Source: Escherichia coli (GTDB lineage Bacteria > Pseudomonadota > Gammaproteobacteria > Enterobacterales > Enterobacteriaceae). Taken from it: 64,000 nucleotides of DNA. Made by a program: the position numbers and the translations under genes. Each line of letters opens with the position of its first letter. Positions within the stretch are counted from its first letter, which is position 1. Below, piece by piece: positions 782-57,214 of the stretch. Below the pieces are notes generated by a model. That model was not told the origin of the DNA and made no database searches. It saw only the letters and a list, made by a program, of their open reading frames with translations. Location of the stretch: assembly GCF_048403405.1 (NCBI RefSeq), contig NZ_CP183129.1; one strand, 5' to 3'.

Positions 782-932
782 AACTTTGCCTCAGGCATTA
801 GAAATAGCGCGTTATTGTACACGGATTAATCGCACTACAAAACAGGATCACAAACATCCTCCGCAAACAAGTATTGCAGAGTCCCTTTGTGATCGCTTTC
901 ACGGAGCATAAAAAGGGTTATCCAAAGGTCAT

Positions 933-1070
933 TGCACCAATATGGTGCTTAATGTTTCCATTGAAGCACTATATTGGTGCAACATTCACATCGTGGTGCA
1001 GCCCTTTTGCACGATGGTGCGCATGATAACGCCTTTTAGGGGCAATTTAAAAGTTGGCACAGATTTCGCT
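933..1070 (+). promoter_or_regulatory. glnA control region: NtrC enhancer palindromes (TGCACCAATATGGTGC 933-948; GCACTATATTGGTGCA 966-981) and sigma-54 promoter glnAp2 (TGGCAC-N5-TCGCT, 1055-1070)
   Basis: Motifs read directly; they match the known NtrC site consensus and the -24/-12 sigma-54 elements upstream of glnA. Confidence 0.7.
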
Positions 1071-5318: not shown

Positions 5319-5429
5319 ATGCTGGAATCAATAATTAATCTGGTATCGAGTGGCGCAGTTGACAGCCACACACCGCAAACTGCCGTTGCTGCCGTGCTGT
5401 GTGCCGCGATGATTGGGCTGTTTAGCTGA
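5319..5429 (+). CDS. yshB: small hydrophobic protein (36 aa) MLESIINLVSSGAVDSHTPQTAVAAVLCAAMIGLFS
   Basis: ATG with SD GGGGAGAG 6 nt upstream; in the glnG-hemN spacer where the small protein YshB is annotated in K-12 (recalled); below the ORF-track size cutoff. Confidence 0.45.
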   Translation: MLESIINLVSSGAVDSHTPQTAVAAVLCAAMIGLFS

Positions 5430-5463: not shown

Positions 5464-5552
5464 GCCGGATGCGGCGTGAACGCCTTATCCGGTCTACAAA
5501 AGCAATATTTTCAACAGGTTTTGTAGGCCTGATAAGCGTAGCGCATCAGGCA
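5464..5552. repeat. REP/BIME element (two inverted REP units)
   Basis: GCCGGATGCGGCGTGAACGCCTTATCCGGTCTACA ... TGTAGGCCTGATAAGCGTAGCGCATCAGGCA; canonical enterobacterial REP palindromes. Confidence 0.7.
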
Positions 5553-7690: not shown

Positions 7691-7759
7691 AATGGTTCGT
7701 CTTTTAGCCGTTTTATTCAGTATAGATTTGCGGCGGAATCTAACAGAAAGCAAGCAAAG

Positions 7760-8001
7760 AAAAAAGGCGACAGATTACTCTGTCGCCTTTTTTCCTGACT
7801 CATAACCCTTAACGGGTCTTACAATCCTTGCAGGCCGCCAACACACCCTGTTTTTCCATTAGCCGGAACAATCCGTGTTGATTCCATTTCCGTTTAATTA
7901 CGTCTCCGGACGTTTGTCTTCCTGACAATCCTCTGTCTTCGCCTCCTGGCGCTCCTGACCCTCATCCTGAGTCATTGTTCCTGTTAGCGTCCTCGCTCTA
8001 T
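7760..8001 (-). ncRNA. csrC: CsrC small RNA (CsrA-sequestering)
   Basis: Minus strand reads ATAGAGCGAGGACGCTAACAGGAACAATGACTCAGGATGAGGGTCAGGAGCG... with many GGA/AGGA motifs, ending in the terminator GGCGACAGAGTAATCTGTCGCC-TTTTTT; lies between engB and yihI as in E. coli. Confidence 0.72.
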
Positions 8002-8271: not shown

Positions 8272-8904
8272 TTGACTAATTTGAATTATCAACAGACGCA
8301 TTTTGTGATGAGTGCGCCTGATATTCGCCACCTACCTTCCGATACCGGAATTGAAGTGGCTTTTGCAGGCCGTTCCAACGCAGGTAAATCCAGCGCGCTG
8401 AACACGCTGACTAACCAGAAAAGCCTGGCTCGTACCTCAAAAACCCCAGGGCGCACCCAGCTTATCAACCTGTTTGAAGTGGCTGACGGCAAGCGTCTGG
8501 TTGACCTGCCCGGCTATGGCTACGCGGAAGTCCCGGAAGAGATGAAGCGCAAATGGCAACGCGCGCTCGGCGAATACCTCGAAAAACGTCAGAGCCTGCA
8601 AGGTCTGGTGGTGCTAATGGATATTCGCCATCCGCTGAAAGATTTGGATCAACAGATGATTGAGTGGGCGGTAGACAGCAATATCGCCGTGCTGGTGCTG
8701 CTGACCAAAGCGGACAAACTGGCAAGCGGCGCACGTAAAGCGCAATTGAATATGGTGCGTGAAGCGGTGCTGGCGTTTAACGGTGATGTGCAGGTTGAAA
8801 CGTTCTCTTCACTGAAGAAACAAGGCGTGGACAAGCTGCGGCAGAAACTGGATACCTGGTTTAGCGAGATGCAGCCTGTAGAAGAAACGCAGGACGGCGA
8901 ATGA
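8272..8904 (+). CDS. engB: ribosome biogenesis GTP-binding protein EngB/YihA
   Basis: 210-aa ORF (TTG start) [41 protein letters not shown]...; G1 motif GRSNAGKSS. Confidence 0.93.
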
Positions 8905-8925
8905 TTTTCTTGCCTTAATGCTTGT

Positions 8926-9005
8926 GCCGGATGTGGCGTATCCGGCCCGTAAATTCAATAGATTACGATTTTACCGTTGGCCTGATAAACATGGCGTATC
9001 AGGCA
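8926..9005. repeat. REP/BIME element
   Basis: GCCGGATGTGGCGTATCCGGCC ... GTTGGCCTGATAAACATGGCGTATCAGGCA palindromic units downstream of engB. Confidence 0.65.
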
Positions 9006-9029
9006 TTACGGATCTTTTCTTTCGCCCAA

Positions 9030-9138
9030 TAAAAAACGCCCCAGTCATTACTGACTGGGGCGGCTAAAATATTCAGCCAAATCCGATTACGTGAAGTAAA
9101 AGGTCTGAAAGATAGAACATCTTACCTCTGTACCCTAC
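9030..9138 (-). ncRNA. spf: Spot 42 small RNA
   Basis: Minus strand reads GTAGGGTACAGAGGTAAGATGTTCTATCTTTCAGACCTTTTACTTCACGTAATCGGATTTGGCTGAATATTTTAGCCGCCCCAGTCAGTAATGACTGGGGCG-TTTTTTATT; matches the recalled Spot 42 sequence and its terminator; immediately downstream of polA. Confidence 0.88.
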
Positions 9139-9285
9139 GCGACTAACTTTACTCTTTTTTGTTCAGTTCAGAAAGCACTTTTTGTAATTTTTTTTCAGTT
9201 GTTGCATAGGAATTTCTAATAGCCATCACAAAACGTGACAGCTTATGTTGCTTACTTACGAAAAAAGGGCATGTTCAGGCGAATC

Positions 9286-12072
9286 TTAGTGCGCCTGATC
9301 CCAGTTTTCGCCACTCCCCACTTCCACCAGCAACGGCACATCCAGACGGGTACAGTTTTCCATCAGTTGATGAATCTGCTTCGCGACGGCATCGACATCA
9401 TCTTTATGAACTTCAAATACCAGTTCATCGTGTACCTGCATGATCATACGTACACGCGGTTGCTCAGCCTGTAGCCACGCATCAACGGCAATCATCGCCC
9501 GTTTGATAATGTCGGCGGCGGTTCCCTGCATTGGCGCGTTAATGGCTGCACGTTCAGCCGCTGCACGACGAGCACCATTGCTGGATTTGATATCCGGCAG
9601 ATACAGACGGCGTCCGTCCAGCGTTTCAACGTAGCCCTGCTCTTTCGCCTGAGCACGGGTGCGTTCCATATACTCCAGCACGCCAGGGTAGCGTTCGAAG
9701 TAAAGGTCCATGTACTTCTGCGCTTCTTTACGTGGAATGTTCAATTGCCGCGCCAGACCGAAAGCACTCATGCCATAAATCAGACCAAAGTTGATCGCTT
9801 TCGCGCTACGGCGTTGCTCGCTGGTGACGGTTTCCAGTGGCAAACCAAACACTTCTGCCGCCGTTGCCCGGTGGATATCTTTTCCTTCCGCGAATGCGGT
9901 CAGCAAGCCTTTGTCACGCGAGAGATGCGCCATAATGCGCAGTTCAATCTGCGAGTAGTCCGCTGAGACAATCACATAATCCTCTGGCGCAATAAACGCC
10001 TGGCGGATACGACGACCTTCTTCGTTACGCACCGGAATGTTTTGCAGGTTAGGATCGGTTGACGATAAACGTCCCGTTGCAGTTACTGCCTGGTGATAAG
10101 AGGTATGCACACGCCCGGTTTTCGGGTTGATCATCAGCGGCAGCTTGTCGGTGTAAGTCGACTTCAGCTTCGCCAGACCACGATACTCCAGAATCACTTT
10201 TGGCAACGGATAGTCCAGCGCCAGTTCTTCCAGTACCTCTTCCGACGTTGACGGCGCGCCACCCGGCGTTTTCTTCAGCGGTTTAATGCCCTGTTTTTCA
10301 AACAGAATGGTTTGTAACTGCTTGGTGGAAGAAAGGTTAAATTCCTCACCTGCAATTTCATGCGCTTTCTTTTCCAGCTCAGCCAGACGAAGGGTGAGCT
10401 CTTCAGAATGATTGTGCAGCACTTTCGGATCGATCTTCACACCGTTACGTTCAATGCGTGAAAGCACCGGCACCAGCGGCATTTCGATATTCTCGAAGAC
10501 GTTCAACGGCCCTTTGTGTTTTTGCAGATCCGGCCACATTTTCAGATGCAACTGCAAGGTGACATCTGCATCTTCGGCGGCGTAACGTCCGGCCTCTTCG
10601 AGGGCAATCTGGTTAAAGGTCAGTTGATTTTTGCCTTTACCAGCAATCTCTTCAAAAGTGATGGTTTTGTGCTTCAACCAACGTTCCGCGAGGCTGTCCA
10701 TATCGTGACGCCCGGCAACGCTATTGAGAATGTAGGACTCCAGCATGGTATCAAACGCAATCCCACGCAGCTCAATGCCGTAGTTCGCCAGAATACCGCG
10801 ATCGTATTTCAGGTTTTGCCCGACCTTCAGCGCCTTTTCATCTTCCAGCAGCGGTTTTAGCAACTCGAGTGCTCGCTCGCGAGAGATTTGATCGGGCGCA
10901 TCAAGATAATCATGAGCAACCGGAATATATGCCGCTACGCCTGGCTCGATAGCAAAAGAAAGCCCGACCAGGTTGGCAGAGATGTTATCGAGGCTGTCGG
11001 TTTCGGTATCAAATGCAAATACCGGCGCTTTTTCCAGCTTCGCAATCCACGCTTTCAGTGTTTCTTCATCAAGGATGGTGACGTAGTTGTCATAAGAAAT
11101 CACCGTTGCCGTCACTTCTGGTGCTTCGTCTGTAACACTGGTTTCCTGCGGCCTGGCTGCGGGTTTCGCCCCTTTAGCCTGTAACCATTTGCCCGCTTCG
11201 ACATCAGCAGTCCAGCGTTTGAACTCATACTTTTTGAACAGCCCCAACAACTCTTCCGCCGCCGGTTGCTGCACTTCCAGTTGTTCACAGGTCAGCTCCA
11301 GTTCAACGTCGGTTTTAATCGTCGCCAGCTGGTATGAGAGATAAGCAACCTCTTTGTTTTGCTCGAGCTTCGCTGCCATTGTTTTCGCGCCACGGAAGCT
11401 CAACCCAGCAATTTTTTCTGGTTCGGCATACAGCGTATCCAGTCCGCCAAGACCTTGCAGCAATGCCTGCGCGGTTTTTTCACCGACGCCCGGTACGCCA
11501 GGGATGTTATCAGAGGAGTCACCCATCAGCGCCAGGAAGTCGATGATCAGTTCTGGCGGCACGCCGTACTTATTCACCACCTCTTCCGGGCCGAGGATGG
11601 TATTCGTCATGGTATTGATAAGCGTAATATTTGGCGTCACCAGCTGCGCCATATCTTTATCGCCAGTGCTGATCAGCACCGGACGCCCGGCTTTTTCGGC
11701 TTCCCGCGCCAGAGTACCGATAACGTCGTCCGCTTCTACGCCAGAAACCGCCAGCAGCGGCAGTCCCATCGCTTTAACCATCGCGTGCAAGGGTTCGATT
11801 TGTGCACGCAGATCGTCCGGCATTGGCGGGCGATGTGATTTGTAATGTTCAAACAGTTCATCACGAAAGGTTTTTCCCTTGGCGTCAAAGACCACCGCTG
11901 CATGCGTCGGTTTATATTGCATGATCAGACTGCGCAGCATGTTGAGGACACCATACATCGCACCGGTCGGCTCGCCTGCGCTGTTAGTCAGCGGGGGAAA
12001 CGCGTGATATGCGCGATAAAGATAAGATGAACCATCTACAAGGATAAGTGGATTTTGGGGGATCTGAACCAT
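9286..12072 (-). CDS. polA: DNA polymerase I
   Basis: 928-aa [45 protein letters not shown]...; 5'-3' exonuclease, 3'-5' exonuclease and polymerase domains. Confidence 0.97.
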
Positions 12073-12435: not shown

Positions 12436-13368
12436 ATGGCTAACTTTTTGAATAAATTCATTATGACGAGAATACTCGCTGCGATAACCCTTTTGCTGAG
12501 TATCGTATTGACCATTTTGGTCACTATTTTTTGCTCCGTCCCGATCATCATTGCCGGGATTGTAAAACTATTGCTTCCTGTGTCAGTCATTTGGCGAAAG
12601 GTTTCGCGTTTTTGTGATTTTATGATGTATTGCTGGTGTGAAGGTCTGGCGGTATTACTGCATTTGAACCCACACCTGCAATGGGAAGTTCACGGGCTGG
12701 AAGGGTTAAGTAAGAAAAACTGGTATCTGCTTATTTGTAACCACCGTAGTTGGGCAGATATTGTCGTACTGTGCGTGCTGTTTCGTAAGCACATTCCGAT
12801 GAATAAATATTTCCTCAAGCAGCAGCTGGCCTGGGTGCCTTTTCTTGGCCTGGCATGCTGGGCGCTGGATATGCCGTTTATGAAGCGTTATTCCCGCGCT
12901 TATTTATTACGTCATCCGGAGAGACGTGGTAAAGATGTTGAAACTACTCGGCGTTCTTGTGAAAAGTTTCGCCTGCATCCCACCACCATTGTTAATTTCG
13001 TTGAAGGCTCCCGTTTCACGCAAGAAAAACATCAGCAAACGCACTCCACTTTTCAAAACTTGTTGCCACCAAAGGCGGCAGGCATTGCGATGGCGCTAAA
13101 TGTACTGGGTAAACAATTCGATAAACTGCTTAATGTTACGCTGTGTTATCCGGACAATAACCGTCAGCCGTTCTTCGATATGTTAAGCGGTAAACTGACG
13201 CGAATTGTCGTACATGTGGATTTACAGCCTATTGCCGATGAGTTACATGGCGACTACATCAATGACAAAAGCTTTAAGCGCCATTTTCAGCAATGGCTGA
13301 ACTCACTGTGGCAGGAAAAAGACCGACTTCTGACGTCGTTGATGTCATCACAGCGTCAGAATAAGTAA
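12436..13368 (+). CDS. yihG: putative acyltransferase (PlsC-like, membrane)
   Basis: Starts [21 protein letters not shown]; HxxxxD-like acyltransferase motif (NHRSWAD); divergent from polA; the ORF-track start at 12412 is 8 codons upstream. Confidence 0.85.
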
Positions 13369-18231: not shown

Positions 18232-18351
18232 ATGCCTGGCAGTTCCCTACTCTCGCATGGGGAGACCCCACACTACCATCGGCGCTACGGCGTTTCACTT
18301 CTGAGTTCGGCATGGGGTCAGGTGGGACCACCGCGCTAAGGCCGCCAGGCA
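18232..18351 (-). rRNA. rrfA: 5S ribosomal RNA
   Basis: 120 nt; minus strand reads TGCCTGGCGGCC...GGGAACTGCCAGGCAT, matching E. coli 5S; rrnA assigned from flanking hemG and mobB and the Ile/Ala spacer tRNAs. Confidence 0.95.
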
Positions 18352-18445
18352 AATTCTGTTTTATTAACCCGCTTGTCGCCGGTTAATTTAATCTGTATCA
18401 GGCTGAAAATCTTCTCTCAATCCGCCAAAACAGCTTCGGCGTTGT

Positions 18446-21349
<2,904 letters not shown>

Positions 21350-21533
21350 TCACAACCCGAAGATGTTTCTTTCGATTCATCATCGTGTTGCGAAAATTTG
21401 AGAGACTCACGAACAACTTTCATTGTTCAGTGTTTCAATTTTCAGCTTGATCCAGATTTTTAAAGAGCAAAACTTCGCAGTGAACCTTTGCAGGTACACT
21501 CTGAAGTATTTTTTATTTAATCACTACAGAGAT

Positions 21534-21609
21534 GGTGGAGCTATGCGGGATCGAACCGCAGACCTCCTGCGTGCAAAGCAGGCGCTCTCCCAGCTGAGCT
21601 ATAGCCCCA
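21534..21609 (-). tRNA. alaT: tRNA-Ala (anticodon UGC)
   Basis: Minus strand GGGGCTATAGCTCAGCTGGGAGAGCGCCTGCTTTGCACGCAGGAGGTCTGCGGTTCGATCCCGCATAGCTCCACCA, 76 nt, in the 16S-23S spacer. Confidence 0.96.
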
Positions 21610-21651
21610 TAACATGTAGTTAAAACCTCTTCAAATTTGCGGTGCAAATTT

Positions 21652-21728
<77 letters not shown>

Positions 21729-21795
21729 TAGAGGTTTTACTGCTCATTTTCATCAGACAATCTGTGTGAGCACTGCAAAGCACAGTTCTTTAAGG

Positions 21796-23337
<1,542 letters not shown>

Positions 23338-31265: not shown

Positions 31266-31378
31266 GCCGAATGCGGCGTGAACGCCTTATCCGGTCTACC
31301 GATCCGGCACCAATGTAGGCCTGATAAGACGCGCCAGCGTCGCATCAGGCATCGTGCACCAATTGCCGGATGCGACAT
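31266..31378. repeat. REP/BIME cluster (2-3 REP units)
   Basis: GCCGAATGCGGCGTGAACGCCTTATCCGGTCTAC ... TGTAGGCCTGATAAGACGCGCCAGCGTCGCATCAGGCA ... GCCGGATGCGACA. Confidence 0.7.
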
Positions 31379-36811: not shown

Positions 36812-39054
<2,243 letters not shown>

Positions 39055-57008: not shown

Positions 57009-57214
57009 CTCATGAAATAATTTTCTCAAACACAAAATCTCATGAAATTTTATTTCATTCCAATGCATCAGTATGAAATGTGAAGCTAGTCACAAGAAAG
57101 ATCATAGGTTGATATGTTTTTCATTAAAAAACATATAGATATCAAGTAATTTTTAATATGTGATGGAGAGGCAGATAGAAAAAATGGCGGAAATGACGAA
57201 ATTTATTTCATGAG
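57009..57214 (-). promoter_or_regulatory. control region of the SIS-PTS-transketolase operon: consensus CRP site (TGTGAAGCTAGTCACA, 57078-57093) and repeated CTCATGAAAT motifs (57009-57018, 57039-57048; inverted copy 57205-57214)
   Basis: Motifs read directly in a ~290-bp AT-rich spacer upstream of the first operon gene; a possible -10 TAAAAT on the minus strand at 57052-57047. Confidence 0.55.

What the first reader, a model, noticed from the sequence alone, without database searches (positions are those of the whole stretch)
9030..9138. Spot 42 sRNA downstream of polA
Minus-strand sequence GTAGGGTACAGAGGTAAGATG...GCCCCAGTCAGTAATGACTGGGGCGTTTTTTATT matches the recalled Spot 42 RNA. It accounts for the terminator-like hairpin at 9037-9063, which should not be taken as the engB terminator alone.
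Basis: partly seen in the sequence, partly recalled or inferred. Interest (0 to 1): 0.25.

Follow-up and report, generated by a model that had tools for sequence, protein, structure and literature searches.

The report
Spot 42 small RNA gene (spf)
This is the ordinary, fully intact E. coli gene for Spot 42, a well-studied small regulatory RNA that helps the cell prefer glucose and also encodes the 15-residue protein SpfP; nothing about this copy is unusual.

Summary
The finding is correct and the feature is already known. Window 9030-9138 (minus strand) is the 109-nt Spot 42 RNA gene, spf. Rfam RF00021 matches over the full model at 122.8 bits, against a gathering score of 80. The window is E. 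coli chromosome, and all 111 nt that K-12 MG1655 annotates as spf (b3864) are identical here. So are the promoter region, the published CRP site and the embedded 15-codon spfP ORF. The gene is at least 99% identical in 5423 of 5426 complete E. coli genomes. It lies in the canonical polA - spf - yihA(engB) - csrC arrangement. In 120 loci from other species, polA is upstream in 97 and a convergent yihA is downstream in 103. Eighty distinct homologues support the fold: 98.9% of cells are paired, against 38-51% in slid controls, and 8 of 10 terminator-stem pairs show compensatory changes. The hairpin at 9037-9062 has its T-run only on the minus strand, so it is the spf terminator. It is not a canonical terminator for yihA. 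Extensive complementarity to the galK start region was reproduced in silico. Interest is low.

The parts
9030..9138 (-). spf gene: the 109-nt Spot 42 RNA, with +1 = G at 9138. The RefSeq K-12 annotation runs two bases further, to 9028.
   Evidence: Rfam RF00021 at 122.8 bits against a gathering score of 80, model positions 1-115. 111/111 identical to K-12 b3864. At least 99% identical in 5423 of 5426 E. coli genomes.
9091..9138 (-). 5' hairpin (RNA nt 1-48). It contains the spfP Shine-Dalgarno sequence and AUG, and most of the target-pairing sequence.
   Evidence: MFE fold. RNAalifold predicts the same helix independently. 100% of cells are paired in 80 homologues, but 16 of the 19 pairs never vary, so the evidence is conservation and not covariation.
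9073..9120 (-). spfP ORF: 15 codons plus stop, MFYLSDLLLHVIGFG*. It spans RNA nt 19-66.
   Evidence: Translation. Annotated as spfP in a genome 100% identical over window 8700-9500 (WP_071892919.1) and in K-12 (b4837). A 15-codon ORF is kept in 110 of 118 homologous loci. Translation and CRP binding were shown experimentally in PMC8916003.
9079..9090 (-). Single-stranded linker (RNA nt 49-60) between hairpins 1 and 2.
   Evidence: Unpaired in both the MFE and centroid folds. Its role as a pairing region rests on my recollection of the literature and was not tested here.
9062..9078 (-). Hairpin 2 (RNA nt 61-77), GGCUGAA/UUUAGCC. The spfP stop codon UGA lies in its 5' arm.
   Evidence: MFE fold. 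94.7% of cells are paired. The closing pair switches from G-C to A-U in 12 sequences. RNAalifold did not predict this hairpin.
9031..9062 (-). Intrinsic terminator of spf: stem 9037-9062 (11 bp, 4-nt loop), then T6 at 9031-9036.
   Evidence: Terminator scan and inverted repeat I1. 8 of the 10 counted stem pairs show compensatory changes in 80 homologues, with 99.1% of cells paired.
9146..9151 (-). Probable -10 hexamer TAAAGT (positions -13 to -8).
   Evidence: Its position relative to the annotated +1, and strong cross-genus conservation of GTAnAGTTA. The strict sigma-70 consensus scan did not call a promoter here, so this is an inference.
9178..9197 (-). A-rich block TGAAAAAAAATTACAAAAAG (-59 to -40). 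It is the most conserved upstream segment across genera and may be an UP-like element.
   Evidence: Conservation profile over 117 distinct upstream sequences. The function is inferred only.
9212..9233 (-). cAMP-CRP binding site TTTTGTGATGGCTATTAGAAAT, centred at -84.5.
   Evidence: The exact string is given as the E. coli spf CRP site in PMC3295665, citing Polayes 1988. It is identical to K-12. Its core has 2 mismatches to TGTGA-N6-TCACA, which is not significant on its own.
9286..12072 (-). polA (DNA polymerase I, 928 aa), the upstream co-directional neighbour.
   Evidence: ORF list and annotation of identical genomes.
8272..8904 (+). yihA/engB (210 aa), the convergent downstream neighbour.
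   Evidence: ORF list and annotation.
8926..9004 (.). Two REP-like palindromes (8926-8946 and 8980-9004) between the yihA stop codon and the spf terminator.
   Evidence: Sequence reading and direct repeat D1. They did not match my recalled REP consensus within 3 mismatches.

Best explanation
Window 9030-9138 (minus strand) is the E. coli spf gene, which encodes Spot 42, a 109-nt Hfq-dependent base-pairing small RNA. It is transcribed from its own promoter 147 nt downstream of polA and ends at its own intrinsic terminator (9031-9062). When glucose is abundant and cAMP is low, CRP does not repress the promoter and Spot 42 accumulates. Its conserved 5' two-thirds pairs with the translation-initiation regions of mRNAs for using non-preferred carbon sources, such as galK, srlA, fucI and nanC, and blocks their expression. 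CRP activates these same genes, so the two regulators form a multi-output feed-forward loop. The same transcript is also a very short mRNA. Its 15-codon ORF (9073-9120) encodes SpfP, which binds CRP and dampens CRP-dependent activation, reinforcing the loop. Shown here: the gene's identity, its integrity, the fold, the terminator, synteny, the intact ORF and complementarity to galK. Taken from the literature and not tested here: expression, Hfq binding, CRP repression, target repression and SpfP activity.
For: Full-length Rfam Spot_42 hit at 122.8 bits against a gathering score of 80. 111/111 identity to K-12 spf, with an identical upstream region back to the polA stop apart from one extra C. 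At least 99% identity in 5423 of 5426 complete E. coli genomes, one copy each. Three-hairpin MFE of -40.6 kcal/mol, z = -5.08. In 80 distinct homologues from Enterobacterales, Vibrionaceae, Aeromonas and Plesiomonas, 98.9% of cells are paired against 38-51% in slid controls, 9 pairs carry compensatory changes (1 of 500 shuffles reach this), and the covariation score is reached by 0 of 500 shuffles. A terminator hairpin plus T6 is present on the minus strand only. Synteny: polA is upstream in 97 of 120 loci and a convergent yihA is downstream in 103 of 120. The spfP ORF is intact and annotated in genomes identical over this region. A 15-codon ORF is kept in 110 of 118 loci, and three of the four substitutions in RNA nt 42-54 are synonymous third-position changes. 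The published CRP site string is present exactly. The duplex with the K-12 galK start region is -54.2 kcal/mol, z = -5.8, reached by 0 of 1000 shuffles and 0 of 44 background start regions. The mechanism is taken from PMC8916003 and PMC3295665.
Against: Nothing found here contradicts it. There are caveats. The strict sigma-70 scan called no promoter upstream; the -35 region is poor, so the promoter assignment rests on the annotated +1 and on conservation. The 5' hairpin is almost invariant, so its structure has no covariation support. RNAalifold did not recover hairpin 2. A CRP site centred at -84.5 is an unusual position for a repressor, and I could not read the original paper. No expression data exist for this strain. 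The duplexfold energy ignores intramolecular structure, and part of the predicted duplex involves the terminator stem, which is probably not available for pairing.
Confidence: 0.97

Rival explanations
1. The region is only a 3' untranslated tail and terminator shared by the flanking protein genes (polA read-through, or the convergent yihA/engB), and its resemblance to Spot 42 is incidental.
For: The hairpin lies between two convergent genes, and the stem is symmetrical. The strict scan called no consensus sigma-70 promoter upstream.
Against: The full-length covariance-model hit covers all three hairpins and not only the terminator. The sequence is identical to the annotated spf gene. The first 50 nt are nearly invariant across genera, while the flanking intergenic DNA diverges. 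The T-run is on the minus strand only, so the hairpin is not a canonical yihA terminator. It lies 133 nt beyond the yihA stop codon, with two REP-like palindromes in between.
Confidence: 0.01
2. The locus acts mainly as a tiny protein-coding gene (spfP), and the RNA's base-pairing role is secondary in this strain.
For: The 15-codon ORF is intact, with AGAGG 4 nt upstream of the AUG. It is annotated as a CDS. A 15-codon ORF is kept in 110 of 118 loci, with mostly synonymous substitutions. SpfP binds CRP, and its effect is stronger at 42 C (PMC8916003).
Against: The Shine-Dalgarno sequence and AUG are sequestered in hairpin 1. Complementarity to galK is extensive and significant. The literature shows that the STOP mutant still represses targets by base pairing. 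Some Vibrio lineages and the Bowmanella variant lose the 15-codon frame yet keep the 5' RNA sequence. The two roles coexist and are not alternatives.
Confidence: 0.02

Closest known systems
E. coli K-12 MG1655 spf (b3864), small regulatory RNA Spot 42; Rfam RF00021
   Same: All 111 annotated nucleotides are identical. The promoter region and CRP site are identical. The neighbours polA, yihA and csrC are the same, as are the three-hairpin fold and the terminator.
   Different: Nothing differs within the gene. The only nearby differences from K-12 are one extra C just after the polA stop codon and five substitutions further downstream: four in and beside the REP-like region and one just inside the 3' end of yihA.
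spfP (b4837), dual-function small protein SpfP (Aoyama et al. 2022, PMC8916003)
   Same: The 15-residue sequence MFYLSDLLLHVIGFG is identical and sits in the same position within the RNA. His10, which is needed for activity in the paper, is present.
   Different: None found. Translation in this strain was not tested.
Spot 42 of Vibrionaceae and Aeromonas (e.g. Aliivibrio salmonicida, PMC3295665)
   Same: The first ~41 nt are identical. The polA-spf-yihA synteny is the same in Vibrio. The three-hairpin plan is shared. The loci checked (L016, L021) pass the Rfam gathering score.
   Different: Hairpin 2 is shorter or diverged and the terminator stem sequence differs through compensatory changes. 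SpfP positions 9 and 13-15 vary. Aeromonas lacks polA upstream. The CRP site is not conserved in sequence.

Membership tests
Rfam RF00021 Spot_42 / E. coli spf | Covariance-model score at or above the curated gathering score (80 bits) over the full model | tested here: met
   122.8 bits, model positions 1-115 of 115, E = 3.6e-24.
Rfam RF00021 Spot_42 / E. coli spf | Sequence identity to the reference spf gene | tested here: met
   111/111 identical to K-12 b3864.
Rfam RF00021 Spot_42 / E. coli spf | Three-hairpin secondary structure kept across homologues | tested here: met
   MFE z = -5.08. 98.9% of cells are paired in 80 homologues, against 38-51% in slid controls. Compensatory changes occur in the terminator stem (8 of 10 pairs) and in one pair of hairpin 2. 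The 5' hairpin is invariant, so it is uninformative.
Rfam RF00021 Spot_42 / E. coli spf | Rho-independent terminator with a 3' U-tail (the usual Hfq-binding module of this class of sRNA) | tested here: met
   An 11-bp G+C-rich stem followed by T6 on the minus strand. Hfq binding itself was not tested.
Rfam RF00021 Spot_42 / E. coli spf | Genomic context polA - spf - yihA(engB) | tested here: met
   polA at 9286-12072(-) and yihA at 8272-8904(+). The same order is found in 86 of 120 loci from other species, and PMC3295665 describes it.
Rfam RF00021 Spot_42 / E. coli spf | cAMP-CRP site upstream, and repression by CRP | tested here: inconclusive
   The published 22-mer is present exactly at 9212-9233. 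The motif match alone is not above chance, and repression cannot be tested in silico.
Rfam RF00021 Spot_42 / E. coli spf | Antisense complementarity to the galK translation-initiation region | tested here: met
   Duplex of -54.2 kcal/mol against K-12 galK -46..+30, z = -5.8, reached by 0 of 1000 shuffles and 0 of 44 background start regions. The K-12 galK sequence was used because galK is not in the window.
Rfam RF00021 Spot_42 / E. coli spf | Expressed as an abundant ~109-nt Hfq-bound RNA in glucose-grown cells | not testable with these tools
   Needs a Northern blot, RNA-seq or Hfq co-immunoprecipitation. Reported for K-12 in the literature.
Dual-function sRNA encoding SpfP | Intact 15-codon ORF with a Shine-Dalgarno sequence inside the sRNA | tested here: met
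   MFYLSDLLLHVIGFG* at 9073-9120(-), with AGAGG 4 nt upstream of the AUG. Annotated as spfP in genomes identical over this region.
Dual-function sRNA encoding SpfP | ORF conserved across genera | tested here: met
   110 of 118 loci keep a 15-codon ORF in five sequence variants, all starting MFYLSDLL[L/F]HVI. Coding constraint cannot be fully separated from RNA-sequence constraint.
Dual-function sRNA encoding SpfP | The peptide is translated and binds CRP | not testable with these tools
   Shown for K-12 in PMC8916003.

The most novel reading that the evidence does not exclude
The most novel reading left open concerns control elements, not the RNA itself. (i) The A-rich block at -59 to -40 (9178-9197), and not the CRP site, may be the ancestral, pan-genus determinant of spf transcription, acting as an UP-like element or as the site of an unidentified regulator. 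(ii) The spf hairpin, together with the two REP-like palindromes, may also define the 3' end of convergent yihA transcripts despite having no plus-strand T-run.
Probability: 0.3. Interest if true: 0.2.

Novelty: already known. Interest (0 to 1): 0.06.

Why it matters
It matters only for correct annotation. The hairpin at 9037-9062 belongs to spf, and the 9030-9138 interval is a dual-function sRNA and small-protein gene, not empty intergenic DNA. Many PGAP-annotated E. coli genomes list no feature under this sequence, or only spfP, so a scan that recovers it is behaving correctly. No new biology follows from this copy.

Tried and rejected
1. Sub-threshold Rfam hits over the same stretch were rejected: PyrR 23.9 bits, VrrA 21.4, NsiR1 20.9 and ncS54 17.0, all far below their gathering scores. 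In the one sub-threshold alignment printed (PyrR), the confident part of the match is the terminator hairpin.

2. The strict sigma-70 scan found no promoter in 8700-9500. I therefore assigned the -10 hexamer from the annotated +1 and cross-species conservation, as an inference.

3. Searching TGTGA-N6-TCACA with up to 3 mismatches gave fewer hits in the window than in shuffles (181 against 223), so the motif match at 9215-9230 proves nothing on its own. The site is accepted only because the literature gives that exact string.

4. I tried to read Polayes et al. 1988 (PMC211256) for promoter and CRP details, but it is not held.

5. My first trimming of the homologues cut sequences at T-runs inside the terminator loop. 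I redid it anchored on the 3' arm of the terminator.

6. A recalled REP consensus did not match the two palindromes at 8926-9004 within 3 mismatches, so they are called 'REP-like' only.

7. Plus-strand ORFs that overlap the locus (8918-9067, 49 aa; 8922-9032, 36 aa) have no annotation in K-12 or in the genome identical over this region. I treated them as spurious.

8. The idea that the hairpin is a yihA terminator was rejected on canonical criteria, because there is no plus-strand T-run. It is not excluded experimentally.

Full report
**Observation.** On the minus strand the window reads GTAGGGTACAGAGGTAAGATG... from 9138, ending ...GCCCCAGTCAGTAATGACTGGGGCGTTTTTTA at 9030. That is 109 nt, the published length of Spot 42 (PMC8916003). 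The hairpin is a perfect 11-bp inverted repeat (9037-9047 and 9052-9062) with a 4-nt loop, followed by T6 on the minus strand.

**Identity.**
- A gathering-threshold Rfam scan of the whole window gives RF00021 Spot_42 at 9030-9148(-): 122.8 bits against a cut-off of 80, E = 3.6e-24, all 115 model positions (alignment).
- The ten extra bases (9139-9148) are promoter DNA that the Rfam model happens to include.
- Other families that touch the region (PyrR, VrrA, NsiR1, ncS54) score 17-24 bits, far below their cut-offs. In the one such alignment printed (PyrR), only the terminator aligns confidently.
- The 801 bases around the locus match 5425 of 5426 complete E. coli genomes, six of the listed records at 100%, so the window is E. 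coli chromosome.
- K-12 MG1655 annotates spf (b3864, ncRNA) and spfP (b4837, CDS) here, between polA and yihA, with csrC and yihI beyond.
- The window is identical to K-12 from the polA stop codon through the terminator and 30 bases beyond it, apart from one extra C right after polA. The first substitutions appear in the REP-like region.
- The 111-nt gene alone is at least 99% identical in 5423 of 5426 genomes, one copy each.

**Anatomy.**
- The RNA folds into three hairpins: nt 1-48, 61-77 and 78-101. A single-stranded linker (nt 49-60) separates the first two, and the RNA ends in a U-tail. The MFE is -40.6 kcal/mol, z = -5.08, with 0 of 200 shuffles folding as well.
- The 15-codon ORF at 9073-9120 translates to MFYLSDLLLHVIGFG*. 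This is the SpfP sequence annotated in a genome identical over this region.
- Its AGAGG Shine-Dalgarno sequence and AUG are paired inside hairpin 1. This agrees with the paper's view that translation is structure-limited and favoured at high temperature.
- Upstream, TAAAGT lies at -13 to -8 (9146-9151).
- The exact 22-mer that the literature gives as the E. coli spf CRP site, TTTTGTGATGGCTATTAGAAAT, lies at 9212-9233, centred at -84.5.
- The strict consensus scan called no sigma-70 promoter, so the promoter assignment is an inference from the annotated +1 and from conservation.

**Evidence from other species.**
- A degenerate 25-nt core pattern recovered 120 loci from a one-genome-per-species collection. 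They cover Enterobacterales, Vibrionaceae, Aeromonas, Plesiomonas and one Alteromonadales genome.
- polA lies upstream and co-directional within 600 nt in 97 loci, and yihA lies downstream and convergent in 103. Both hold in 86 loci.
- The exceptions with enough flanking sequence are mainly Morganellaceae, where insertions push polA 0.7-3.3 kb away, and Aeromonas, which has no polA upstream. This matches the synteny described in PMC3295665.
- Eighty distinct RNA sequences were aligned. RNAalifold independently predicted hairpin 1 and the terminator but not hairpin 2.
- I then counted the E. coli MFE structure on that alignment:
  - 98.9% of cells form standard pairs, against 38-51% when the partners are slid by 1-3 columns.
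  - 9 pairs carry changes on both sides (1 of 500 shuffles reach this), and 76 cells do (0 of 500).
  - The covariation sits in the terminator stem (8 of 10 pairs) and in the closing pair of hairpin 2, which is G-C in 52 sequences and A-U in 12.
  - The 5' hairpin is essentially invariant: 16 of its 19 pairs never vary and 3 vary only by wobble. Its conservation therefore reflects sequence constraint, and structure gets no independent support there.

**Why the 5' part is so constrained.** Two known functions overlap in it.
- *Target pairing.* RNA.duplexfold of the window's Spot 42 against the K-12 galK start region (-50..+30) gives -54.2 kcal/mol. Shuffled targets give -30.3 +/- 4.1 (z = -5.8, 0 of 1000 as good), and 44 long-ORF start regions from the window reach no better than -47.1. 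The duplex includes Spot 42 nt 8-61 paired across the galK ribosome-binding site and AUG. The contribution from the terminator stem is probably an artefact, because intramolecular structure is ignored.
- *Coding.* 110 of 118 loci keep a 15-codon ORF in five variants, all beginning MFYLSDLL[L/F]HVI. Of the four variable positions in nt 42-54, three are synonymous third-position changes: UUA to UUG, GUA to GUU and AUC to AUU. His10, which the paper's H10A mutant shows is required, is kept in all the 15-codon variants.

**Mechanism.** This part is taken from the literature and was not tested here. cAMP-CRP represses spf. In glucose, Spot 42 accumulates, binds Hfq and represses mRNAs for non-preferred carbon sources (galK, srlA, fucI, nanC) that CRP activates, forming a multi-output feed-forward loop. 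SpfP binds CRP and blocks activation at some promoters, reinforcing the loop, especially at 42 C (PMC8916003).

**The terminator question.** The T-run follows the stem only on the minus strand. On the plus strand the stem is preceded by AATAAAAAA and followed by GCTAAAATATTC, and the scan found no plus-strand terminator-like site in 8700-9500. The yihA stop codon is at 8902-8904, 133 nt before the hairpin, and two REP-like palindromes (8926-8946 and 8980-9004) lie between them. The hairpin is therefore the spf terminator. Whether it also stops yihA transcripts is unproven and would need 3'-end mapping.

**Verdict.** This is a textbook gene in its textbook place, identical to the reference, so it is already known and of low interest. 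The only loose ends concern regulation: a repressor site at -84.5, and an A-rich -59..-40 block that is better conserved across genera than the CRP site. There are also a few variant homologues in other species, listed under observations made in passing.

Noticed in passing
window 9178-9197 (minus strand, -59 to -40 of spf): The A-rich block TGAAAAAAAATTACAAAAAG is the most conserved upstream segment across Vibrio, Aeromonas and Enterobacterales. It is much better conserved than the CRP site at 9212-9233, which is kept only in close relatives of E. coli. It may be an UP-like element or a regulator site.
   Followed up: partly
L057 (Bowmanella yangjiangensis), minus strand around 12950-13040: A truncated Spot 42-like gene. 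The first 40 nt are identical to E. coli, then a G+C-rich terminator follows directly, giving an RNA of about 73 nt with no hairpin 2 or linker. yihA is still convergent downstream. It does not reach the Rfam Spot_42 gathering score, and the 15-codon SpfP frame is lost.
   Followed up: partly
L021, L049, L060 (Vibrio breoganii, V. ezurae, Vibrio sp. UCD-FRSSP16_30): In this lineage hairpin 2 is replaced by an A/U-rich sequence, Tyr3 of SpfP becomes His, and the stop codon is lost, so the ORF runs to 24 or more codons. L021 still passes Rfam at 99.2 bits.
   Followed up: partly
L009 (Escherichia albertii NBRC 107761), upstream of spf: In the alignment, 11 bp of the conserved A-rich upstream block are missing (TGAAAAAAAA-----------TGCTTTCTG), while the CRP site and the RNA are intact.
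   Followed up: no
L022 (Pantoea stewartii), near the contig end: There is a 6-nt insertion in the 5' arm of hairpin 1: GTAGGGTACAGAGGTACAGGTAAGATG, where other species have GTAGGGTACAGAGGTAAGATG. It could be real or an assembly artefact at the contig end.
   Followed up: no
window 8926-8946 and 8980-9004: Two REP-like palindromes (GCCGGAT..ATCCGGC and GCCTGATA..TATCAGGC) lie between the yihA stop codon and the spf terminator. This stretch holds four of the five substitutions from K-12 downstream of spf. Clearer REP copies lie at 5464-5497 and 31266-31299.
   Followed up: partly
window 7748-8001 (-): CsrC small RNA, Rfam RF00084 at 277.9 bits, in its canonical place between yihA and yihI.
   Followed up: partly
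window 18234-23337 (-): A complete rrn operon: 16S, tRNA-Ile(GAT), tRNA-Ala(TGC), 23S and 5S. A StyR-44 Rfam hit at 21357-21465 lies just upstream of the 23S gene.
   Followed up: partly
window 38449-38700 (-) and 863-970 (-): Full-length Rfam hits to Erse sRNA (317.9 bits) and ES222 sRNA (133 bits). The Erse hit ends in ...GGCUAAAUGA. I did not examine whether either overlaps coding sequence.
   Followed up: no
window 57079-57094: A perfect match to the CRP core consensus, TGTGAAGCTAGTCACA, with 0 mismatches. It is the only perfect match in the window. The gene it controls was not identified.
   Followed up: no
E. coli complete-genome collection: Two of the 5424-5425 spf-bearing records are labelled plasmids. 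One or two genomes lack a match, and one has only 95-99% identity. Most of the RefSeq records listed show no feature under spf, or only spfP; one record labels it 'spot 42 RNA, inhibition of DNA synthesis'.
   Followed up: no
window ~9268 (minus strand, just after the polA stop codon): A single extra C relative to K-12, in the run ATGCCCTTTTTT, is the only difference in the polA-spf intergenic region.
   Followed up: no
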